Source: an uncultured Gammaproteobacteria bacterium (GTDB lineage: Bacteria > Patescibacteriota > Patescibacteriia > UBA11705 > JABHMO01). Taken from it: a DNA stretch of 64,000 bases. The notes beneath the pieces were generated by a model that made no database searches, was not told the origin of the DNA, and worked only from the letters and a program-made list of their open reading frames with translations. A program made the position numbers and the translations under genes. The DNA lies in assembly GCA_964486065.1 (NCBI GenBank), contig CAZAKN010000001.1, forward strand, positions 80,657 to 144,656. The letters are read 5' to 3'. Below, one piece after another: positions 4,734 through 27,432 of this stretch. The number at the start of each line of letters is the position of its first letter. Within the stretch, counting starts at the first letter, position 1.

Positions 4734-6317
4734 TTAAACAAGCGGTCTGCCACTCATTTCGTCCGGTGGCTCAATTCCCATTAATTTCAGAATAGTGGGA
4801 GCAATATCACTTAAAACTCCCACCGGTTGCAACAAACTTAAATCCACTCCGCTCTCCGTATTATTTAAAATATTTTTTCCTTCCAATTCACGATCAATCA
4901 CAATGCAAGGAACCGGATTGGTGCTATGTTCTTTGTCTCTTTCTCCGGTTTGCAGATTCAACAATTCTTCAGCGTTGCCATGATCAGCGGTAATAACCGC
5001 CTTCCCTCCTTTAGACAAAAGAAGTTCCACCACTTCGCCAACACATTGATCAATATATTCAATGGCTGTCACCGTTTCTTTTATTTCTCCAGTATGACCG
5101 ACCATATCAGGATTGGCGAAATTCACTACCACGAAATCATGTTTTTCACGATTTAATTCTTGAATCAATTTATCGGTTACCGATCGCGCGGACATAAGCG
5201 GTTGCTCTGAATAGGAAGCCACCTTGGGCGAAGGTACCACTATTCTATCCTCTCCTTCAAAAGCGTCTTCCGTGCCTCCACTGAAAAAAAATGTAACATG
5301 TGCGTATTTTTCAGTTTCCGCGATATGTAATTGCCTGAAACCCTTTTCACTAAGCACTCTGGGCAAAGATGTTTTAATAGTCTCTTTCTGATAAGCGACC
5401 TTGACGGGTAAACCTTCTTCGTATTGCGTCATGGTTACAAATAATAAATTATCAATTTTCTTTCCACGATCAAATTTATCAAACTCCTCATCTAAAAAAG
5501 TATGCGTTAATTGCCGAGCACGATCCGCACGATAATTAAAAAAGATGACCGCGTCATTATCACCCACAACCGCTCTCGGCGAACCTTCTTTGCCGATTAC
5601 AACAGGGATAAATTCTTCATCATAAACTTTTTCTTCATACGATTTTTCAATAGCTTTTACGGGATCCTTATAATATTCTTCACTTTCGCCGTCAGTCAAA
5701 ACCTTCCATGTTTTCTCAACTCTGTCCCAACGATTATCACGATCCATGGCGTAATAACGACCATGCAAAGAAGCGATTTTGCCGACTCCGATTTTTTTAA
5801 TCTCTTTTTGTAAATCTTCAATAAAGCCTTTGCCACTATTGTAAGGTGAATCACGACCGTCCAAAAAAGCATGCACAAAAACATCTTTCACCTTATTGCG
5901 TTTAGCCAAATCCAAAAGCGCGTAACAATGCGAATTCATGGCATGAACCTTTCCTTCACTCACCAATCCCACCAAATGCAATTTGGAGTTATGCTTTTTA
6001 ACATGATCAAACGCTTCCAAAAACGCCGCGTTTTCAAAAAAACCGCCACCATCAATATCCTTATCAATGCGTGGCAAATTTTGATAAAAAATCTTACCCA
6101 CGCCGAGATTCAAATGTCCAACTTCCGAATTCCCCATTTCCCCCCAAGACAAACCAACGGCTTCTCCCGAAGCCAACAAAGTCATGGCCGGATAGCTTTC
6201 AATGTATTTATTGATGTTCGAAGTTTTGGCCAGTGAGACACCATTCCCTTCAGAATGTGGCGCCACTCCCCAACCATCAAGAATTATTAGCATTACTGGT
6301 TTTCTGTTGTCAGACAT
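4734..6317 (-). CDS. gpmI: 2,3-bisphosphoglycerate-independent phosphoglycerate mutase (copy 1)
   Basis: 527 aa; N-terminal LIILDGWG, metal-binding alkaline-phosphatase-superfamily core, C-terminal ADHGN. Confidence 0.85.
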   Translation of the reverse strand: MSDNRKPVMLIILDGWGVAPHSEGNGVSLAKTSNINKYIESYPAMTLLASGEAVGLSWGEMGNSEVGHLNLGVGKIFYQNLPRIDKDIDGGGFFENAAFLEAFDHVKKHNSKLHLVGLVSEGKVHAMNSHCYALLDLAKRNKVKDVFVHAFLDGRDSPYNSGKGFIEDLQKEIKKIGVGKIASLHGRYYAMDRDNRWDRVEKTWKVLTDGESEEYYKDPVKAIEKSYEEKVYDEEFIPVVIGKEGSPRAVVGDNDAVIFFNYRADRARQLTHTFLDEEFDKFDRGKKIDNLLFVTMTQYEEGLPVKVAYQKETIKTSLPRVLSEKGFRQLHIAETEKYAHVTFFFSGGTEDAFEGEDRIVVPSPKVASYSEQPLMSARSVTDKLIQELNREKHDFVVVNFANPDMVGHTGEIKETVTAIEYIDQCVGEVVELLLSKGGKAVITADHGNAEELLNLQTGERDKEHSTNPVPCIVIDRELEGKNILNNTESGVDLSLLQPVGVLSDIAPTILKLMGIEPPDEMSGRPLV

Positions 6318-6366
6318 ATTTATTATTTATTTATTATTACGAATCATTATTTACGGATCAAGGAAA

Positions 6367-7923
6367 TTATTTTATAAGCGAACCTGAAATACCTTTGGGA
6401 ATTTTTTTGATATTAAACATTTGATAAATTGTCGGAGCAATATTGGTTAAATCCCCTTTTTTAAATAATTTGACTCCCTTTTTGTCATCACTTACCAAGA
6501 TCAAAGGAACGGGATTGGTCGTATGCCAAGTCCAAACTTCATCGGTTTTCAAGTCAAGCATTTTTTCCGCGTTACCATGATCAGCCGTGACGATCAGTTC
6601 ACCTTTATTTTTCAAAACAGCTTTACTTACCTCGCCCAAACATTTATCAGTATGCTCAATCGCTTTAATCGTGGCGGGCAAATTCCCCGTATGCCCCACC
6701 ATGTCGGGATTGGCGAAATTAATGGTAATGAAATCATATTTTTTTTGTTCAATATATTTCACGACCTGTTTAGCTATTTTATAAACACTCATTTCAGGTT
6801 TCAAATCATAACTTTTAACTTTCGGCGATGGAATCATTTGCCACTTTTCATGATCGCGTGTCTCCTTGTAACCACCATTGAAAAAATATGTGACATGCGC
6901 GTATTTTTCCGTTTCCGCTATATATAATGAATTAACATTTTCCAAAATTTTTGGCACTGATTGTTCCACCTGCGCTCCGGGGAAAGCTGCTTGCATGCCG
7001 TCAAGATCCGGTCCAAAGTCGGTTAAGGCGGTAAAAGTTAGATTTTTTATAACTTTGTTTCTTTTAAAAGAATTCTTATTTCTGCGATTGAAATCTTTTT
7101 GCGCAAAGGTTTTGGCTATTTGTCTCGCCCTATCTGATCTTAAGTTGAAAAATATGACCGAATCATTGTCATTAATTCTGCTTTTGGCGACATGCTTCCC
7201 ATCGGAGCAAATCGTGGCAGGTTCAATAAACTCATCGGTTATGCCTTTGTTGTATGAATGCAAAACCGCTTGTTTGAGATTTTTAAAATTACGACACTTG
7301 CCGGCGGTCAGGCAATCATAGGCTTTTTGCGTGCGTTGCCAATTTTTAACACGATCCATGGCGTAAAACCTTCCCATCACAGTTACGATTTTGGCTTTTC
7401 CTTTAACCTTTTTTTCCACTTCATCAAGCACTTCAATTGAAGCATATTGCGGAGAGTCACGACCATCGGTGATAAAATGCAGAAAAATATTTTTAACTTT
7501 ATATTTGGCCGCCATGTTCACCAAGGCATACATATGCTGTTTATCCGAATGAGGACTGCCGTTCTTGCTAAGCAATCCGAAAATATGTAAATTAGCAGCG
7601 TTTTGCTCGGCATGCTTGATAGAATCAATTAAAATATTATTTTTTTCAAAACGACCGTTTCTGATAGATTCGGAAATAATCACCGAATCTTGTTTAACCG
7701 GAAAACCGGCGCCGATATTCATATGTCCGGCTTCGGAATTTCCAACTTGATTTTTCGGCAATCCCACTTGCGAACCATGCGCCACCAACTTGGTATGCGA
7801 ATACTTCTCCCACAATTTTTCATAATTAGGCTTAACCGCTTGTTCAATAGCATTTCCTTTCGTTTTGGGAGCCAATCCCCAACCATCAAGAATCAGCAAT
7901 ACGATTGTTTTATTTGTTTTCAT
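6367..7923 (-). CDS. gpmI: 2,3-bisphosphoglycerate-independent phosphoglycerate mutase paralog (copy 2)
   Basis: 518 aa; same signature blocks (LLILDGWG, ANPDMVGHTG, TADHGNAE) as neighbouring copy but clearly diverged sequence. Confidence 0.8.
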   Translation of the reverse strand: MKTNKTIVLLILDGWGLAPKTKGNAIEQAVKPNYEKLWEKYSHTKLVAHGSQVGLPKNQVGNSEAGHMNIGAGFPVKQDSVIISESIRNGRFEKNNILIDSIKHAEQNAANLHIFGLLSKNGSPHSDKQHMYALVNMAAKYKVKNIFLHFITDGRDSPQYASIEVLDEVEKKVKGKAKIVTVMGRFYAMDRVKNWQRTQKAYDCLTAGKCRNFKNLKQAVLHSYNKGITDEFIEPATICSDGKHVAKSRINDNDSVIFFNLRSDRARQIAKTFAQKDFNRRNKNSFKRNKVIKNLTFTALTDFGPDLDGMQAAFPGAQVEQSVPKILENVNSLYIAETEKYAHVTYFFNGGYKETRDHEKWQMIPSPKVKSYDLKPEMSVYKIAKQVVKYIEQKKYDFITINFANPDMVGHTGNLPATIKAIEHTDKCLGEVSKAVLKNKGELIVTADHGNAEKMLDLKTDEVWTWHTTNPVPLILVSDDKKGVKLFKKGDLTNIAPTIYQMFNIKKIPKGISGSLIK

Positions 7924-11262: not shown

Positions 11263-12480
11263 TCAATATTTAAATCCGCCCACTTTTTTGCGTAATCTTG
11301 AGTATTTTGCCAATGCACCGGGGCGCACGGTCAATTCACCGTAACGATCATTGATTTTATCCAAATGCTTGATTAACTCATCATATTTTTGCTCGGACTT
11401 AAATAAACAAGCTTGAGAAGTCGCTTGTTGCAAATTACCCGCGTAAACTCCGATCTGTCTAACTGAATTCCGAAATTTTAAACCGGACAAAATTGATTTA
11501 GCGCTTTTAAATATTTTCAATTCATTATTCATCGGGAATTTAAAAGTGATTCTTTCGGAAAATCCGCTAAAATCAGCGTAACGAAAATGAAACACAAAAG
11601 TTCGCGCCGCTAATTTATCACCACGCAAAGTCCTGCAAACATTTATGCATAAATGTTGCAAAACCGGCAGAACATCTTGTTTGTTCCAAGTATTTTTATC
11701 CAAAGTATAAGCGCGACTGACGGATTTACGGATTTCACGATTGGAATCCGGTTTGACCGGAGCATGATCAATCCCGCGACTCATATTGTAAAGATTTTGT
11801 CCTTGTACTTTTCCAAACTCGGCAATCAAAGCGAGCAAAGGATAATTTCGCAATTTTCGCACCGAAAATATGCCCATGTTTTCCAATCGCTTGGCAATCC
11901 GTGTCCCTATACCGCAAAAATCAGTTAAACGGGCATGAAAAAGATAATCATCGCGATTTTTGCGATTGATAATGGTTATACCGTCAGGTTTATCAATTTC
12001 CGAAGCTAATTTCGCCAAAAATTTATTATATGATATTCCAATTGAGCAAGTAATGGTTTCACCAAGCCGAATTTTTAAATCCTTTTTAATTTGCGAACAA
12101 ATATTCTTGGCTTCCGAATAATCGGAAGCGTAACCGGTTAAATCAAGAAATACTTCATCAATACTGAAAATTTCCACAACTTCGGAATATGATTTAAAAA
12201 CTTGAATAAATTCATTGGTTATAAATTGATATTTGTCACCATCACATTCCACGAAAATTAAATCCGAACAAAATTTCTTCGCTTCAAATTGACTCATGGC
12301 GGTTTTAACTCCTTTTGCTTTGGCCTCTTTTGAAGCGGCGGCCACGACCGCGCGACTCCCCTCCTTGCCTCCGACCGCAACGGGCTTACCAATTAAAAAA
12401 GGATTAGCTTGTTGCTCCACAGACGCGAAATATGAATCCATGTCTATATGCAAGATAATCCTTTTGCTGTTATTCACCAT
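11263..12480 (-). CDS. dinB: DNA polymerase IV (Y-family, DinB)
   Basis: 405 aa; N-terminal ILHIDMDSYFASVEQ catalytic motif of Y-family polymerases; downstream of lexA. Confidence 0.85.
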   Translation of the reverse strand: MVNNSKRIILHIDMDSYFASVEQQANPFLIGKPVAVGGKEGSRAVVAAASKEAKAKGVKTAMSQFEAKKFCSDLIFVECDGDKYQFITNEFIQVFKSYSEVVEIFSIDEVFLDLTGYASDYSEAKNICSQIKKDLKIRLGETITCSIGISYNKFLAKLASEIDKPDGITIINRKNRDDYLFHARLTDFCGIGTRIAKRLENMGIFSVRKLRNYPLLALIAEFGKVQGQNLYNMSRGIDHAPVKPDSNREIRKSVSRAYTLDKNTWNKQDVLPVLQHLCINVCRTLRGDKLAARTFVFHFRYADFSGFSERITFKFPMNNELKIFKSAKSILSGLKFRNSVRQIGVYAGNLQQATSQACLFKSEQKYDELIKHLDKINDRYGELTVRPGALAKYSRLRKKVGGFKY

Positions 12481-12718
12481 AATAAACTTCTTCTAAAATC
12501 CATTGATTATTCCCCGTATTATAGCGTAATTTGAAGTAATTTTCCGCGCTTTGCACGCTGAAAAAATATTGTTTATCTCTTCCCATGTAAAGTGAATGGA
12601 TCATGTTAATCCTTTGTATTGAATACTTATGATTATGCCATACGAAAAATAGAGGTTTAACTCTATTTTTCATAAATAACACCATAACATCCACTTTTTC
12701 ATTAACTTGCTCAAACAT
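12470..12718 (-). CDS. Small hypothetical protein translationally coupled to dinB
   Basis: 82-aa ORF overlapping the dinB start by 11 nt; no recognisable motif; could be a polymerase accessory factor (inference). Confidence 0.35.
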   Translation of the reverse strand: MFEQVNEKVDVMVLFMKNRVKPLFFVWHNHKYSIQRINMIHSLYMGRDKQYFFSVQSAENYFKLRYNTGNNQWILEEVYYGE

Positions 12719-12938: not shown

Positions 12939-12983
12939 GGGGAGAAATACATGGATTACAACCCCCATCATGTATTTCTCCCC
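12939..12983. repeat. Perfect 15-bp inverted repeat (GGGGAGAAATACATG / CATGTATTTCTCCCC) with 15-nt loop; possible terminator/regulatory hairpin downstream of lexA
   Basis: Read directly from sequence; T-rich run follows on + strand. Confidence 0.5.
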
Positions 12984-13008: not shown

Positions 13009-13614
13009 TTATGAAAATTTTCTTATTACTCCTTTTACCACGCCTTGGATTTGAACATCCTGCGCGTAAATCGGTTCCATGGATGAATTAGCGGGCTGTA
13101 ATCTAATTCTGTTTTTTTCGCGATAAAATCGTTTTAAAGTCGCGTTTTCTCCGTCAATCAAAGCCACAACTATCTCACCATCTCTTGCCGTATTCTTTTT
13201 TTCAACGATTACATAATCACCGCTTAAAATTCCTTCTTCAATCATGGAATCTCCTTTAACTTTCAGCACAAACGAATTTTCATCTTGAACAAATGTTTCC
13301 GGAACGGACATGGTTTCTTTTTCTTCCACCGCTTCAATCGGTGCTCCCGCGGTGATCAATCCGGCCAAAGGCAATTCAAATCCGCGAACTCGTGCCATAA
13401 ATTGATCTTCCAATCTGTTTCGCGTAATAATCTCTCCCTCTTCATCCATGTAGCCCTTTTGCCTCAGTGCTTGGAGATGCTGATGGACCGTTGCGGGCGA
13501 GGACAATCCCACTCCTTCAGCAATCTCCCGGCAACTGGGCGAATAATCATTTTCTCTTATAAAATTAGTTATGAATTTCAATACTTCACTTTGTCTTCTG
13601 GTTAATGTTTGCAT
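13009..13614 (-). CDS. lexA: LexA repressor
   Basis: 201 aa; N-terminal wHTH, C-terminal S24 peptidase domain with Ala-Gly cleavage site (LAGLITAGAPIEA) and Ser/Lys dyad region (VKGDSMIE...K). Confidence 0.85.
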   Translation of the reverse strand: MQTLTRRQSEVLKFITNFIRENDYSPSCREIAEGVGLSSPATVHQHLQALRQKGYMDEEGEIITRNRLEDQFMARVRGFELPLAGLITAGAPIEAVEEKETMSVPETFVQDENSFVLKVKGDSMIEEGILSGDYVIVEKKNTARDGEIVVALIDGENATLKRFYREKNRIRLQPANSSMEPIYAQDVQIQGVVKGVIRKFS

Positions 13615-13664
13615 ATTTTTTTATTAAACAAATTATGATCAGAATTTCACCGTTTTTCACCACT

Positions 13665-13710
13665 GTTCGGTTTCTGTTCGTAATTTAACTATACCGAACA
13701 AAAAACGAAC
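13665..13710. promoter_or_regulatory. Two candidate LexA operators of GTTC-N7-GTTC type in inverted orientation (GTTCggtttctGTTC at 13665-13679; GAACaaaaaacGAAC at 13696-13710)
   Basis: Seen in sequence 50-95 nt upstream of lexA start, in the lexA/13841 divergent intergenic region; GTTC-N7-GTTC direct repeat is the established alphaproteobacterial-type LexA box. Confidence 0.45.
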
Positions 13711-13840
13711 AGTCAAGCCCCACGCATGTGGATAAATTCTCTGATTAACCGATTTGTCTAAATTTATTTTAAAATTGTGTATAATTTATCGCCTCAATCC
13801 TCTTGATATGGTATAATTTAACAGATATTATTTATTTTAT

Positions 13841-14890
13841 ATGATTGAGGATAATCAATTTAAACCCAAAAAATCCGAACAGGAAGAACAGCCAAAACAA
13901 ATGCCCGAACTCAAAGTGGCGAGGCCGGCAATCGTTCAACCGGAAACGGAACAATTACCTTATGATTCTCCCTCTCCCGACGATAAAGCGGAAGTGTTGG
14001 AAGATTTTGAGAAAATGTATGAAAATACATTAAAACTTTATCTCGGTTTGACGAAAAACGCCAAAGAGAACATGACTTACGCGCATCGTAAATTCAATGA
14101 ATCAGCGGACAAGAAAAACCGAGCCGAGAAAAAAAAGTATTCTCAAGCTCATCTGCATGCTCATCGTGCCAATCATGCGACCGAAAAAGTTATCAGTAAT
14201 TATGAAAAAGTTCTGTATAGCAAACTTCGCGCTGATGATAAAATTTTCTATTTGGTACAAATTGAAGAATTAAAAAACGAATATCGTTTCAACATGAATG
14301 AATATTTTAATATTTTGAAAACTACGGAAGATTACGAAAAAGACAAGGCGCAAGCTGAACTTCGAGAATTTGATCACCAAATCACTTATGAAGATTTGGA
14401 ACAATTATCCGTAGAACTTCATGATACGGTTTGGGACGCGGCCACTTTCACCAAATATAAATTTGAAAATAAAGAAAAAATGCACAAACTGATGGGCATT
14501 TTAAGCGCTTTAATCAATGAAACCGAAGAATCACATGACCAACTTCAAGATTCATTGGTGGATGCTCATGATATTTATCACGGCAAGGAACAAGTTCGTC
14601 GCAGTTTTAATAATCACATGAGAGCCCATATAAACTTAACGACCACCTCTTATCAAGAAGTAAAAAAAGCGGCCAAAGAGCTATCGGAATATTTCACTTT
14701 ACTCAACATGCCCTTAAATAATTTAACTTCTTGGCTCAATAGATTTCAATATGAGCTTTGGGAACAACCGGAAAAACAAAAGCAAATACAAAAAATTTAT
14801 CACGATAACATCGCCATGTTTAAACAACATCTTAAAAAAACGGAAAAAGCGATTCAAGAAATAAAAGCCATTATTTACACTCACGAATAA
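13841..14890 (+). CDS. Hypothetical Lys/Glu-rich coiled-coil protein, divergent from lexA
   Basis: 349-aa ORF, low complexity charged/helical; no motif recognised. Confidence 0.5.
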   Translation: MIEDNQFKPKKSEQEEQPKQMPELKVARPAIVQPETEQLPYDSPSPDDKAEVLEDFEKMYENTLKLYLGLTKNAKENMTYAHRKFNESADKKNRAEKKKYSQAHLHAHRANHATEKVISNYEKVLYSKLRADDKIFYLVQIEELKNEYRFNMNEYFNILKTTEDYEKDKAQAELREFDHQITYEDLEQLSVELHDTVWDAATFTKYKFENKEKMHKLMGILSALINETEESHDQLQDSLVDAHDIYHGKEQVRRSFNNHMRAHINLTTTSYQEVKKAAKELSEYFTLLNMPLNNLTSWLNRFQYELWEQPEKQKQIQKIYHDNIAMFKQHLKKTEKAIQEIKAIIYTHE

Positions 14891-15943: not shown

Positions 15944-16333
15944 TTACTCTTTCTCAGACATGTTTTTAAACTGCTCATAACTACCAATTCCGGCAAAGTT
16001 TATTTCAAAATTAGCATTATCTATTTTATCAATTCTTACTGAGTCAATCCCCAAAATATGCAATCTTTCGTATGTCAAAAGCTCTCCCTCTTTTAACCTC
16101 AAAACATCTCTTAAAATCCATTGTCCAAGCTCTTGATTTGAATATGACATAAGTGCTTTCCCTCCATCTTGGCAGCTTTTAGCTTTCATTTTTTTGCCAT
16201 TTGGAAGTTTTAAATCAAATGACGTTTCCCTGTCAGGAAAAAAACTTGGGAAATTTCTGTGAATTTCCGCTGGAATTGGAATATATACCTCATTAGGGTG
16301 GCGCTCTCTACCACCAGCATTCCATTGATTCAA
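15944..16333 (-). CDS. Hypothetical protein, putative restriction endonuclease component (second cistron)
   Basis: 129-aa ORF whose ATG overlaps the stop of the upstream ORF (ATGA), immediately downstream of m5C-MTase; no motif recognised. Confidence 0.4.
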   Translation of the reverse strand: MNQWNAGGRERHPNEVYIPIPAEIHRNFPSFFPDRETSFDLKLPNGKKMKAKSCQDGGKALMSYSNQELGQWILRDVLRLKEGELLTYERLHILGIDSVRIDKIDNANFEINFAGIGSYEQFKNMSEKE

Positions 16334-17067
16334 ACCGCTTTTTTCAAAAACTGTTTGATTTCGGCCGTAAAGAGGAAGGTAAACTGTTTGCTTAATTTTT
16401 GCTTCTTTCTCAAATTGTAAGTCTGTTTTTTAAGTAATTTTCTTAATTCTAAAAGCGGGTCTTCCAAAATATCAACATTAAACTCATAAACAATCGGCTC
16501 CGTGATAAATCTTTTTGTGAGTGTGCTTTTGGAAACTAAAAAAGAGTAATCATGTTTACAGTCCTCAAAAGCAATAGAGCCTTTTCGTTCTTTAATGTTT
16601 TTGATATTGGCTATATCCACTTTATCCATTGGCTCCTCGAAAATCATAAATTTTCCTTTTTCTCTGATTACGCAATGGTAAATAGATTTTTTCAAAGCGT
16701 GTGCATTTTCCGTAAATTCAATCCTAGCGTTTCTCAACTCAGAAACTTTGATGATCAATTTTTCAGGAGATAGATTTTCATAAATTTTTCTATCATTGTT
16801 AAATTCAGCAACTTTCTGAAAAGTTCTATTATTGTTAGCCAAAAAGGTTTTTAGACCAATTCCCAAAACATCTTTTTTTGCATCTGCCGATACATCACTT
16901 CTTGATAAATCTTCCGCTTCAAAAGCACGACAAAAAATCTTTTCCGCAACTCGATAGTATAAATAAGGAATTTTTGATTCTGAAAAAAGATTAGAAAGAC
17001 AACCTGCAATTCTCAAAAAATGCTCGTATTCTTTTTGAAGATCAGATTTTTGAGTTTGGAAAAACAT
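16330..17067 (-). CDS. Putative type II restriction endonuclease (uncharacterised family)
   Basis: 245-aa ORF 5 nt downstream of the m5C-MTase gene, same strand; function by position only. Confidence 0.4.
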   Translation of the reverse strand: MFFQTQKSDLQKEYEHFLRIAGCLSNLFSESKIPYLYYRVAEKIFCRAFEAEDLSRSDVSADAKKDVLGIGLKTFLANNNRTFQKVAEFNNDRKIYENLSPEKLIIKVSELRNARIEFTENAHALKKSIYHCVIREKGKFMIFEEPMDKVDIANIKNIKERKGSIAFEDCKHDYSFLVSKSTLTKRFITEPIVYEFNVDILEDPLLELRKLLKKQTYNLRKKQKLSKQFTFLFTAEIKQFLKKAV

Positions 17068-17071
17068 ATTT

Positions 17072-18031
17072 TTAGTTAGTTAAAGCTTTTTTCATATTTG
17101 CAGCGATTCTTTGAATAACCGGAATTGAAACAGAATTACCAAATTGTTTGTACAGATGAGAATCTGCAATGTTAGGGAGTTTATAATTCTTTGGAAAACC
17201 TTGGAAATTACCACATTCTCTTGGCGTTAACTTTCTAATTCCTTTTCCGTTTAAAACCAAAGGAACATTATGACCACCCATTCCCATATTTGCCGTTAAA
17301 GTAGGACAAACCTTATTTTTATTCTCTCTAACATATTTTCTTCGCCATTGATAAACAGTGTCTCGTTTTTTGACTTCCTTTTGCAATTCTTGATAAAGCG
17401 GTTTGTCATTGTAATAATATTTATCATCAACTTCATTTTCTTCTAAGCAATCATGAATTGTTTTTGTTAATTTAATCTTTTCTGGAAAAGAAAATTTGTC
17501 ATGAGCTTTTTTGTCTGAAAATCCAACAATATATATTCTCTCTCTATTTTGTGGAAGATTCCCATATTCCATTGTATTTAAAACTTTTACTTTAACAAAA
17601 AAACCAAGTTCTTTTTCTAATTTTTCAATAATAATTTTCATTGTGTTTCCTTTGTCATGTGTTTTGAGGTTTTTTACATTTTCAAGAAGAAAAGCCTTTG
17701 GCTTTTTAGCTTTTAAAATTCGTACAATATCAAAAAACAAATTCCCTCTGTTTTTCTCATCATTAAACCCTTGTTTATATCCCGCAATAGAAAAAGGTTG
17801 ACATGGAAAACCACCACACAAAACATCAAAATCAGGAATTTTTGAAGTCGGTATTTTTTGAATATCGCCAAGTACCATTTGTTTTTCGGTTTCAAATATT
17901 TCAACAAAATTAAAATCAAATGTTGTTTTTGCATTTTCATCAAAATCATTGGAAAACACACATTGAAACCCGGCGTTTTCAAAACCAATTTTTATTCCAC
18001 CTATACCGGCAAATAGATCTATGAATTTCAT
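17072..18031 (-). CDS. DNA (cytosine-5)-methyltransferase
   Basis: 319 aa with canonical m5C-MTase motifs: I (DLFAGIGG), IV (GGFPCQPFS), VI (ENV), VIII (QNRER), X (QFGNSV). Confidence 0.9.
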   Translation of the reverse strand: MKFIDLFAGIGGIKIGFENAGFQCVFSNDFDENAKTTFDFNFVEIFETEKQMVLGDIQKIPTSKIPDFDVLCGGFPCQPFSIAGYKQGFNDEKNRGNLFFDIVRILKAKKPKAFLLENVKNLKTHDKGNTMKIIIEKLEKELGFFVKVKVLNTMEYGNLPQNRERIYIVGFSDKKAHDKFSFPEKIKLTKTIHDCLEENEVDDKYYYNDKPLYQELQKEVKKRDTVYQWRRKYVRENKNKVCPTLTANMGMGGHNVPLVLNGKGIRKLTPRECGNFQGFPKNYKLPNIADSHLYKQFGNSVSIPVIQRIAANMKKALTN

Positions 18032-26709: not shown

Positions 26710-27141
26710 TTAAATTCCCAGTTCTCCCAAATGTTCGGCGATTTCATTGCTTTGCTTTTCAGTATCTTTCTTGTATTTTTCCCATTTTACTTCATCCCAG
26801 ATTTCCAATCTATCATACAAACCGGCAATAACCGCTTTTTTTCCTATTTCCGCGAATTTGCGTAAATATTCGGGAATCATTATTCTACCTTGTTTATCAA
26901 GTTGAACATCCATAGCTCCGGCTAACATCAATCTGGCAAAAGCTCTGGTATTGGCTTGACTGAAAGGAAGTTCAGAAAGTTTTTCAGCCAATTTTTCCCA
27001 TTCCTTTTTCGTGTAAATAAATAAAGAATTGTCCAAACCGCGCGTAACCACCGCTCCCCTTGCCAAAGCCAAGCGAAATTTGACCGGCACGGCCAGTCTT
27101 CCTTTCGCGTCCAAGGAATGATTGTATTCTCCTATAAACAT
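26710..27141 (-). CDS. mraZ: Transcriptional regulator MraZ
   Basis: 143 aa; duplicated MraZ half-domains with DxxxR motifs (LDAKGRL / LDKQGRI). Confidence 0.85.
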   Translation of the reverse strand: MFIGEYNHSLDAKGRLAVPVKFRLALARGAVVTRGLDNSLFIYTKKEWEKLAEKLSELPFSQANTRAFARLMLAGAMDVQLDKQGRIMIPEYLRKFAEIGKKAVIAGLYDRLEIWDEVKWEKYKKDTEKQSNEIAEHLGELGI

Positions 27142-27255: not shown

Positions 27256-27432
27256 ATCTCCAATTGTCAATAATATTTATCCACAAAAACCAATTATAAA
27301 AAGCAAGGATATTTCCTCGCTTTTAAGTTAGATAAAGCATTGGCGTAATGTACATTGATCTTGACCAACGCGTCTATCTTTTGCTTTTCAAACAACGCCA
27401 CTTCTTTTTCCAGCTCTGTTTGCTATCCATAA

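What the first reader, a model, noticed from the sequence alone, without database searches (positions are those of the whole stretch)
13665..13710. Pair of inverted GTTC-N7-GTTC motifs (alphaproteobacterial-type LexA box) upstream of lexA
GTTCggtttctGTTC (13665-13679) and GAACaaaaaacGAAC (13696-13710) form an inverted pair of the direct-repeat LexA operator type known from Alphaproteobacteria. They lie 50-95 nt upstream of lexA and face the divergent gene 13841-14890. This suggests autoregulated lexA (with dinB read-through) and an SOS-controlled Lys/Glu-rich divergent gene. This box type would be unexpected in a CPR-like genome.
Basis: partly seen in the sequence, partly recalled or inferred. 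Interest (0 to 1): 0.55.

Follow-up and report, generated by a model that had tools for sequence, protein, structure and literature searches.

The report
Two-box LexA operator at lexA promoter
The two inverted GTTC-N7-GTTC repeats are real and are the conserved self-repression sites of the SOS repressor LexA in this Patescibacteria (CPR) genome, an ordinary kind of element for this group, although a conserved DnaA-box next to it is an unexpected extra.

Summary
Observation confirmed: both GTTC-N7-GTTC repeats are at the stated coordinates. On a weight matrix built only from orthologous lexA promoters they score 26.7 and 23.1 bits; the next best site in 64 kb scores 13.1.

On the lexA strand, box A (13694-13711) fills the spacer of a TTGACT-17-TATAGT promoter. 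Box B (13664-13681, inverted) covers the predicted transcription start.

The same direct repeat occupies the same promoter position at lexA in about 33 of 45 Patescibacteria genomes and in 17 independent metagenome contigs. It also occurs in Acidobacteriota and Gemmatimonadota. An inverted second box at +15 to +37 recurs in the closest relatives. The box also precedes dinB, an ImuA-like gene and a radical-SAM gene elsewhere.

It is therefore a LexA operator of a known kind. It is alpha-like in form, but this LexA is not of the alphaproteobacterial lineage (about 30% DNA-binding-domain identity).

dinB read-through is plausible but unproven, because a strong hairpin follows lexA.

New-looking side result: a perfect DnaA box (TTATCCACA, 13727-13735) lies 24 nt upstream of box A. 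It is about 90-fold enriched at Patescibacteria lexA promoters (p about 1e-26) and the enrichment was replicated independently.

The parts
13694..13711 (-). LexA box A: TGTTCGTTTTTTGTTCGG, a direct repeat of TGTTCG with an 11-bp period. It fills the -35/-10 spacer of the lexA promoter.
   Evidence: 26.7 bits on a matrix built from orthologous sites only. An equivalent site sits at the same promoter position in about 33 Patescibacteria loci and 17 metagenome loci.
13664..13681 (+). It lies just downstream of the -10, at about +1 to +18 of the predicted lexA transcript.
   Evidence: 23.1 bits, offset +30 from box A. An inverted second box at +15 to +37 is also present in L001, L006, L020, L038, L118, L127, L133, L148, L153 and L156.
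13711..13716 (-). Predicted -35 hexamer TTGACT of the lexA promoter. Its last base overlaps box A.
   Evidence: Promoter scan, 10 of 12 matches with a 17-nt spacer. TTGA(C) abuts the box in nearly all related loci.
13688..13693 (-). Predicted -10 hexamer TATAGT of the lexA promoter, sitting between box A and box B.
   Evidence: A TATAAT-like hexamer immediately follows the box in nearly all related loci.
13727..13735 (-). Perfect DnaA-box 9-mer TTATCCACA on the lexA strand, 10 nt upstream of the -35 and 24 nt upstream of the start of box A.
   Evidence: One of only 2 perfect copies in 64 kb. Across loci there are 21 copies within 100 nt of the lexA box against 8 in 245 kb elsewhere, p about 1e-26. 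Replicated as 14 against 1, p about 8e-20. Preferred offset is -18 to -26.
13009..13614 (-). lexA, encoding a 201-aa canonical LexA repressor.
   Evidence: Pfam LexA_DNA_bind and Peptidase_S24. NCBIfam TIGR00498 at 202 bits. Ala89-Gly90, Ser123 and Lys161 are invariant in alignment A1. The closest solved structure is LexA 3k2z.
12939..12983 (-). 15-bp hairpin in the 290-nt gap after lexA, with no U-tract. It is a possible partial terminator or RNA-stabilising stem, and it bears on read-through into ORF82-dinB.
   Evidence: -25.1 kcal/mol, z -4.2. The terminator scan did not flag it, for lack of a T-run.
12470..12718 (-). ORF82, a conserved small protein between lexA and dinB and a distant DUF6504-like family member. 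Probably part of the lexA operon.
   Evidence: Orthologues lie downstream of lexA in 16 loci. 12 of 16 weakly match DUF6504.
11263..12480 (-). dinB (DNA polymerase IV). Its start overlaps the end of ORF82 by 11 nt.
   Evidence: Pfam IMS, IMS_HHH_1 and IMS_C. NCBIfam DNA polymerase IV. Found downstream of lexA in 19 loci.

Best explanation
The region is the autoregulated promoter of lexA in a Patescibacteria genome.

Mechanism:
- Each 18-bp box is a direct repeat of the half-site TGTTCG with an 11-bp period, and probably binds one LexA dimer.
- Box A fills the spacer between the -35 (TTGACT) and the -10 (TATAGT), so bound LexA should exclude RNA polymerase.
- Box B is the same box in inverted orientation, 30 bp downstream. 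It covers the predicted start site and adds a second block.
- After DNA damage, RecA-stimulated self-cleavage of LexA would free the promoter. The cleavage site and the Ser/Lys dyad are intact.
- ORF82 and dinB downstream are probably co-induced by read-through, at least in part.

What is shown: the sequences, the promoter geometry, conservation across relatives, and association of the box with other SOS genes in related contigs.
What is inferred: LexA binding, one dimer per box, the transcription start, and read-through.

A conserved DnaA box 10 nt upstream of the -35 suggests that DnaA also acts on this promoter.
For: - Exact motifs and inverted arms.
- A TTGACT-17-TATAGT promoter on the lexA strand, with box A in the spacer.
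- The boxes score 26.7 and 23.1 bits on an independent matrix; the next best site in 64 kb scores 13.1.
- The same box is at the same promoter position upstream of lexA in most Patescibacteria loci.
- It is upstream of lexA in 17 metagenome contigs found by pattern alone.
- A second box recurs, either inverted or tandem.
- The box lies directly upstream of dinB when dinB is detached from lexA: L012 at 25.6 bits; L011, where the box has the same spacer as that genome's lexA box; and L159.
- It also lies upstream of an ImuA-like RecA-fold gene and a radical-SAM gene.
- The LexA is canonical, with its cleavage and catalytic residues.
- PMC8565304 and PMC7739468 state that LexA direct-repeat motifs exist in Alphaproteobacteria, and they cite Patescibacteria.
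Against: - There is no binding or expression data for this organism.
- The transcription start is predicted only.
- No other SOS gene in the 64 kb window carries the box, and recA and uvrA are not in the window.
- Spacing between the two boxes varies from 15 to 37 bp among relatives, so cooperative binding is not implied.
- A strong hairpin after lexA may limit read-through to dinB.
Confidence: 0.85

Rival explanations
1. The inverted pair acts as a nucleic-acid structure, either an RNA hairpin/terminator or a DNA cruciform, rather than as protein-binding sites.
For: The 76-nt stretch folds at -28.1 kcal/mol, z -4.6. The arms are 19 nt and 89% complementary.
Against: - The upstream arm lies inside the -35/-10 spacer, so it is not in the lexA transcript.
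- No T-run follows the stem, and no gene ends there on either strand.
- Most relatives have only one box. Several have the second box in tandem, not inverted (L002, L019, L094, L130), and that arrangement cannot pair.
- The arms are conserved as sequence rather than through compensatory change.
Confidence: 0.04
2. The direct repeat is the site of a different regulator, or a lineage-specific promoter-spacer element, and not of LexA.
For: No binding data are available here. The element always coincides with the promoter spacer, so conservation of the promoter itself could contribute.
Against: - The association is specific to lexA and to classic SOS genes: dinB, ImuA-like and radical SAM.
- The GTTC half-site is shared with published LexA motifs.
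- Second copies occur outside the spacer, downstream of the -10.
- No other promoter in the 64 kb window has it.
Confidence: 0.07
3. The boxes are a bidirectional SOS operator that also represses the divergent Lys/Glu-rich gene 13841-14890.
For: The two genes share the 226-nt intergenic region.
Against: - The plus-strand promoter-like sites are at 13803-13845, and there is an extended -10 (TGTGTATAAT) at 13776-13785. All lie about 60 nt or more from box A.
- ORF349 has no homologue in any of the 80 lexA loci and matches no family.
Confidence: 0.08

Closest known systems
Patescibacteria LexA-binding motif and SOS network (Sanchez-Osuna, Barbe and Erill 2017, Environ Microbiol 19:3465)
   Same: Same superphylum, same regulator, and a direct-repeat motif structure according to the way PMC7739468 cites that paper. 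The lexA and dinB targets found here fit the translesion-centred SOS regulon stressed in that literature.
   Different: I could not read the paper because it is not held. I therefore cannot say whether its consensus equals TGTTCG-N5-TGTTCG, or whether it reports the two-box architecture or the DnaA box.
Alphaproteobacterial LexA box GTTC-N7-GTTC (stated in PMC8565304)
   Same: Identical formal pattern: a direct repeat of GTTC with a 7-nt spacer. It is located at the lexA promoter.
   Different: The cognate LexA is not of the alpha lineage. DNA-binding-domain identity is about 30%, and the recognition helix reads SPATVHQHL against SKSGIHRLI. The alpha LexAs also have about 40 extra linker residues and lie far outside in the NJ tree.
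Direct-repeat lexA promoters of Acidobacteriota and Gemmatimonadota (seen here in L044-L080; the Acidobacterium capsulatum GTTC-N7-GTTC box is cited in PMC7739468)
   Same: They carry a TTCG-N7-TTCG repeat with the same 11-bp period in the same -35/-10 spacer position. Their LexA proteins are the closest non-Patescibacteria relatives, at 41-46% DNA-binding-domain identity.
   Different: The half-site is TTCGC or TTCGG rather than TGTTCG, no DnaA box is nearby, and Gemmatimonadota use tandem pairs.
Gram-positive Cheo box GAAC-N4-GTTC
   Same: Same GAAC/GTTC half-site. It is present at lexA in L073 (Chloroflexota) and L079, whose LexAs are also about 50% identical overall.
   Different: It is a palindrome with a 4-nt spacer. 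No such site exists at this promoter.
DnaA plus LexA dual control of E. coli uvrB, recN and dinJ (PMC6015884)
   Same: A DnaA box and a LexA box share one SOS promoter.
   Different: In E. coli the targets are repair genes, with degenerate and overlapping boxes. Here a single perfect box sits at a fixed offset at the lexA promoter itself, and it is absent from the other LexA-box promoters examined.

Membership tests
LexA operator (SOS box) of an autoregulated lexA promoter | Site overlaps the core promoter or start site of lexA | tested here: met
   Box A fills the TTGACT-17-TATAGT spacer and box B covers the predicted +1 to +18.
LexA operator (SOS box) of an autoregulated lexA promoter | Adjacent gene encodes a bona fide cleavable LexA | tested here: met
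   LexA_DNA_bind and Peptidase_S24 domains, TIGR00498 at 202 bits, and invariant Ala-Gly, Ser and Lys residues.
LexA operator (SOS box) of an autoregulated lexA promoter | Site conserved at orthologous lexA promoters | tested here: met
   About 33 of 45 Patescibacteria genome loci and 17 metagenome loci carry a site of at least 15 bits upstream of lexA.
LexA operator (SOS box) of an autoregulated lexA promoter | Same motif upstream of other SOS genes | tested here: met
   Found upstream of dinB (L012, L011, L159), an ImuA-like gene (L086, L120) and a radical-SAM gene (L116). This holds in related contigs only. No other site exists in this window, and recA and uvrA are not in the window.
LexA operator (SOS box) of an autoregulated lexA promoter | Specific binding by the cognate LexA protein | not testable with these tools
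   Needs EMSA or footprinting.
Alphaproteobacterial-type LexA box | Direct repeat GTTC-N7-GTTC | tested here: met
   Two exact matches at 13665-13679 and 13696-13710.
Alphaproteobacterial-type LexA box | Recognised by a LexA of the alphaproteobacterial lineage | tested here: not met
   Identity to Brucella, Phyllobacterium and Mesorhizobium LexA is 29-30% in the DNA-binding domain and 44% in the C-terminal domain. The NJ tree places the window LexA inside Patescibacteria with the alpha LexAs far outside. The tree is crude (NJ, 22 sequences).
Patescibacteria LexA-binding motif (Sanchez-Osuna et al. 2017) | Host lineage is Patescibacteria | tested here: met
   The best LexA hits are Kuenenbacteria, Falkowbacteria, Uhrbacteria and Parcubacteria-group proteins.
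Patescibacteria LexA-binding motif (Sanchez-Osuna et al. 2017) | Sequence matches the published consensus | not testable with these tools
   The paper is not held. Only its citation as a direct-repeat case is available.
Cheo box (GAAC-N4-GTTC palindrome) | Palindromic GAAC-N4-GTTC at the promoter | tested here: not met
   None in the 300 nt upstream of lexA in the window.
DnaA box (transcriptional DnaA site) | 9-mer matching TTATNCACA | tested here: met
   Perfect TTATCCACA at 13727-13735.
DnaA box (transcriptional DnaA site) | Non-random, conserved placement at orthologous promoters | tested here: met
   About 90-fold enrichment, p about 1e-26, replicated at p about 8e-20, with a preferred offset of -18 to -26.
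DnaA box (transcriptional DnaA site) | Bound by DnaA with an effect on transcription | not testable with these tools
   Needs EMSA or a reporter assay.
Replication origin (oriC) | Cluster of DnaA boxes at a GC-skew switch | tested here: not met
   GC skew is uniformly negative across the window. There is one perfect box and one relaxed box here, and DnaA 9-mers are rare elsewhere in the loci.

The most novel reading that the evidence does not exclude
In one large Patescibacteria clade (the Uhr-, Falkow-, Komeili- and Kuenenbacteria-like groups), the lexA promoter is a fixed composite: a consensus DnaA box, about 10 nt, the -35, LexA box A, the -10, then optionally an inverted LexA box B. On this reading the replication initiator DnaA directly tunes the level of the SOS repressor, linking replication status to the SOS threshold in organisms with very few regulators. 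The DnaA box is specific to lexA promoters and absent from the other LexA-box promoters examined. I found no report of this in the searchable literature, but I could not read the 2017 Patescibacteria SOS paper.
Probability: 0.5. Interest if true: 0.6.

Novelty: new member of a known kind. Interest (0 to 1): 0.35.

Why it matters
As a LexA operator this is a routine confirmation. It shows that this CPR genome keeps a classical self-repressed SOS switch driving at least lexA and probably a translesion polymerase, using the direct-repeat box that is standard for its lineage. It corrects the idea that the box is foreign to CPR.

Two things go further:
- The 11-bp-period repeat is shared by Patescibacteria, Acidobacteriota and Gemmatimonadota LexAs, which are related to each other. 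Alpha LexAs use the same formal motif with a very different DNA-binding domain. This is useful material for the question of how LexA switched from palindromes to direct repeats.
- The conserved DnaA box at lexA promoters, if functional, would be a simple and testable link between replication initiation and SOS control in minimal-genome bacteria.

Tried and rejected
- Tried to read Sanchez-Osuna et al. 2017 by DOI and the Verrucomicrobia LexA paper PMC4951493. Neither is held.
- Looked for a separate LexA box in the lexA-ORF82 gap and anywhere else in the window, including upstream of mutS, mutL and the fpg-like gene. Nothing scored above shuffle level.
- Looked for promoters in the gap. The count is at chance level: 9 found against 7.6 expected.
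- Looked for homologues of the divergent ORF349 near lexA elsewhere. None were found, and it has no family match.
- Looked for the source organism's name. Only Logan read-set contigs (SRR7048223 and SRR7048224) were returned.
- Rejected a Cheo box: no GAAC-N4-GTTC is present.
- Rejected oriC for the DnaA box: there is no GC-skew switch.
- Rejected a hairpin or terminator role for the inverted pair (plus the tandem arrangements in relatives).
- About 60 of the 83 metagenome pattern matches are not upstream of lexA. Many of them are chance hits inside coding sequence of high-GC contigs or in GTTCGGTTTTT satellite arrays (L092, L096, L098, L100, L114, L135, L151). I did not use any of these 60 as evidence, apart from the few with clear promoter context.
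- ORF82 had no match in the PDB by profile search.

Full report
**1. Observation**

The two motifs exist exactly where stated. GTTCGGTTTCTGTTC is at 13665-13679 and GAACAAAAAACGAAC at 13696-13710 on the plus strand. The window holds only three GTTC-N7-GTTC matches (1.25 expected), and two of them are these.

The repeat finder shows 19-nt inverted arms, 13662-13680 and 13695-13713, 89% complementary and 14 nt apart. It also shows that the true half-site is the 6-7-mer (C)TGTTCG, repeated twice per arm with an 11-bp period. The hexamer TGTTCG alone is not over-represented in the window (37 matches against 29.6 expected). It is the arrangement that is special.

**2. Local anatomy**

- ORF 13009-13614 (minus strand) is a canonical LexA. 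It has the LexA_DNA_bind and Peptidase_S24 domains and matches TIGR00498 at 202 bits. The Ala-Gly cleavage site and the Ser/Lys dyad are invariant among 36 homologues. Its best solved relative is LexA 3k2z.
- Downstream on the same strand are a 290-nt gap, an 82-aa ORF (12470-12718) and dinB (11263-12480), which overlaps the ORF's end.
- On the lexA strand there is a good sigma-70-type promoter, TTGACT (13716-13711), 17 nt, TATAGT (13693-13688).
- Box A (13694-13711, TGTTCGTTTTTTGTTCGG) fills that spacer.
- Box B (13664-13681) is the same box inverted and begins right after the -10. It therefore covers the predicted start site and roughly the first 18 transcribed bases. The start site is inferred.

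**3. Comparative evidence that the box is a conserved operator**

The LexA's best database hits are Patescibacteria: Kuenenbacteria, Falkowbacteria, Uhrbacteria and the Parcubacteria group. I fetched 80 lexA loci from species-representative genomes.

- Exact GTTC-N7-GTTC, on the lexA sense strand, is present upstream of lexA in about 20 of the roughly 45 Patescibacteria loci. It is present in none of the other phyla.
- Reading the sequences shows the same element, sometimes with a degenerate first half-site, between a TTGAC -35 and the -10 in most of the rest. These include Daviesbacteria, Saccharibacteria and WWE3.
- I built an 18-nt weight matrix from 19 orthologous sites, excluding the window. 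It scores the window's boxes at 26.7 and 23.1 bits. The next best site in 64 kb is 13.1 bits, and the best score per shuffle ranged from 10 to 19.9.
- Across the loci, strong sites lie almost only upstream of lexA.
- An exact-pattern scan of the metagenome collection (YGTTCGNTTTTTGTTCGG) gave 83 matches. In 17 of them lexA is the first downstream gene, and in one it is dinB. Most of the rest are chance matches inside coding sequence of high-GC contigs, or lie in satellite arrays.

**4. The two-box arrangement**

A second box near the first is common.

- Inverted second box at +15 to +37: L001, L006, L020 and L038, and L118, L127, L133, L148, L153 and L156. These include the closest relatives of this LexA, at 59-64% identity. 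The window's offset is +30.
- Tandem second box: L002, L019, L094 and L130.

The variable spacing and orientation indicate two independent operators rather than one rigid composite. It also argues against a hairpin function. The region can fold (-28 kcal/mol, z -4.6), but its upstream arm lies inside the promoter and is not part of the lexA transcript.

**5. Is it LexA's site?**

No binding data exist here, so this step is inferred. The support is as follows.

- The box's position is that of a classical repressor.
- It is tied to lexA across phyla.
- When dinB is detached from lexA it carries its own box. In L012 a 25.6-bit site abuts the dinB start. In L011 the dinB box shares its genome-specific spacer (ATTCTT) with that genome's lexA box. 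L159 is a third case.
- The box precedes an ImuA-like RecA-fold gene (L086, L120) and a radical-SAM gene (L116). Both are typical SOS cargo; a radical-SAM protein is named in a LexA regulon in PMC7739468.
- The GTTC half-site is that of published LexA motifs (PMC8565304).

Within this window no other gene has the box, and recA and uvrA are not in the window.

**6. 'Alphaproteobacterial type'?**

In form, yes. By descent, the evidence says no.

I retrieved real alpha LexAs. My recalled probe turned out to be identical to Brucella melitensis LexA.

| Compared with the window LexA | DNA-binding-domain identity | C-terminal-domain identity |
|---|---|---|
| Alphaproteobacteria | 29-30% | about 44% |
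| Patescibacteria, Acidobacteriota and Gemmatimonadota | 37-57% | 55-68% |

The recognition helix reads SPATVHQHL in the window and SKSGIHRLI in the alpha proteins. In a simple NJ tree the alpha LexAs fall far outside.

The lexA promoters of those Acidobacteriota and Gemmatimonadota relatives carry the same 11-bp-period repeat (TTCG-N7-TTCG) in the same spacer position. The Chloroflexota locus L073 and L079 carry the palindromic GAAC-N4-GTTC instead. The direct repeat is therefore a shared trait of a LexA group that includes Patescibacteria.

PMC7739468 cites the 2017 Patescibacteria SOS paper among cases where LexA evolved a direct-repeat motif. I could not read that paper. The box is thus expected in a CPR genome, not unexpected.

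**7. Divergent gene and dinB**

ORF 13841-14890 has its own promoter-like elements at 13803-13845 and an extended -10 at 13776-13785, all about 60 nt or more from box A. It has no family match. It has no homologue beside lexA in any of the 80 loci. SOS control of it is not supported.

The order lexA-ORF82-dinB is conserved in at least 16 loci, often with gaps of only 20-130 nt. An ancestral operon is therefore likely. In this window, however, the 290-nt gap holds a 15-bp hairpin (12939-12983, -25 kcal/mol, z -4.2, no U-tract) and no box. Read-through is plausible but unproven.

**8. An unplanned finding: a DnaA box**

A perfect DnaA-box 9-mer, TTATCCACA, lies at 13727-13735 on the lexA strand. 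That is 10 nt upstream of the -35 and 24 nt upstream of box A. It is one of only two perfect copies in the window.

- In the genome loci, 21 perfect copies lie within 100 nt of the primary lexA box (7.1 kb in total), against 8 in the other 245 kb. This is about 90-fold enrichment, binomial p about 1e-26.
- In the independent metagenome lexA loci the counts are 14 in 3.7 kb against 1 in 99 kb, p about 8e-20.
- The commonest position is -18 to -26 in the sense orientation. A second class has the complement 35-46 nt downstream.
- The 9-mer is absent from the dinB, ImuA-like and radical-SAM boxes. It appears in only 2 of 61 other pattern matches.
- It is absent from the Acidobacteriota and Gemmatimonadota lexA promoters.
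- GC skew is uniformly negative over the window, so this is not an origin.

E. coli offers precedent for DnaA and LexA acting on the same SOS promoters (uvrB, recN, dinJ; PMC6015884). I found nothing in the held literature about lexA promoters or CPR. Whether DnaA binds here, and with what effect, is untested.

**9. Verdict**

The finding is real and its core reading (an autoregulatory LexA operator) is right, but it belongs to a known kind and is standard for its lineage.

- Interest as stated is modest.
- The claims of unexpectedness and of an SOS-controlled divergent gene fail.
- The most interesting residue is the conserved DnaA box.

Noticed in passing
window 13727-13735 (and L001-L026, L038, L040, L067, L083-L156): A perfect DnaA-box 9-mer TTATCCACA sits at a fixed offset (about -18 to -26) upstream of the LexA box at Patescibacteria lexA promoters. 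It is about 90-fold enriched and the enrichment replicated in an independent set. It is absent from the non-lexA LexA boxes and from the outgroup phyla.
   Followed up: yes
window 13776-13784: A second 9-mer fitting the relaxed DnaA consensus TTATNCACA (TGTGTATAA on the plus strand) lies 49 nt from the perfect box, in the same orientation. It overlaps the extended -10-like TGTGTATAAT that faces the divergent gene. This may be coincidence.
   Followed up: partly
window 27277-27285: The only other perfect TTATCCACA in the window lies in the intergenic region about 136 nt upstream of the mraZ-like gene (26710-27141, minus strand), at the head of the division/cell-wall cluster.
   Followed up: no
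window 12470-12718 (-); orthologues in L001, L002, L005, L006, L008, L010-L013, L016-L018, L020, L025, L036, L041: A conserved ~80-aa protein lies between lexA and dinB across Patescibacteria, with invariant V11, F15, P22, W27, G46, F53 and W73. 12 of 16 members weakly match DUF6504 (best E 7e-4). There is no PDB relative by profile search. It may be a DinB-associated SOS protein of unknown function.
   Followed up: partly
window 12939-12983 (-): A 15-bp perfect-stem hairpin (GGGGAGAAATACATG / CATGTATTTCTCCCC) lies in the unusually long 290-nt gap after lexA. It folds at -25 kcal/mol, z -4.2, and has no U-tract. Its role is unclear: partial terminator, RNA stabiliser or repeat element.
   Followed up: partly
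L001, L002, L019, L094, L130: In several relatives a small gene is inserted between the LexA-boxed promoter and lexA, putting the boxes about 490-530 nt upstream of lexA. The inserted gene was confirmed as a 23S-rRNA-IVS four-helix-bundle protein in L094 and a GIY-YIG protein in L130. For L001, L002 and L019 the insertion is inferred only from the 490-530-nt distance and coding-looking sequence; those inserts were not identified.
   Followed up: partly
L025 6717-6734 (-) upstream of 6101-6571 (-): A 22.1-bit LexA box lies 146 nt upstream of a PEBP/YbhB-family gene (Pfam PBP, E 2e-36). This is a possible lineage-specific SOS regulon member.
   Followed up: partly
L015, L017, L018, L067: In the GTTCTATTTTTGTTCTA subtype the box runs straight into the apparent lexA start (…GTTCTATATG). 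This suggests either a leaderless lexA mRNA or a mis-set start codon.
   Followed up: no
L002, L012-L014, L020, L024, L026, L030, L034, L037, L039 and others (record titles): Many 'binchicken' MAG records titled 'uncultured Gammaproteobacteria/Pseudomonadales bacterium' carry Patescibacteria-type lexA genes, promoters and synteny. The record taxonomy looks wrong.
   Followed up: no
L092, L096, L098, L100, L114, L135, L151: Some metagenome contigs contain tandem arrays of GTTCGGTTTTT-like units (satellites). These match the LexA-box pattern by construction and are unrelated to lexA.
   Followed up: no
window 15944-18031 (-): By eye, 17072-18031 begins like a C5 cytosine DNA methyltransferase (MKFIDLFAGIGGIKIGF…). 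The two small ORFs downstream of it could be a restriction partner. I did not check this with any tool.
   Followed up: no
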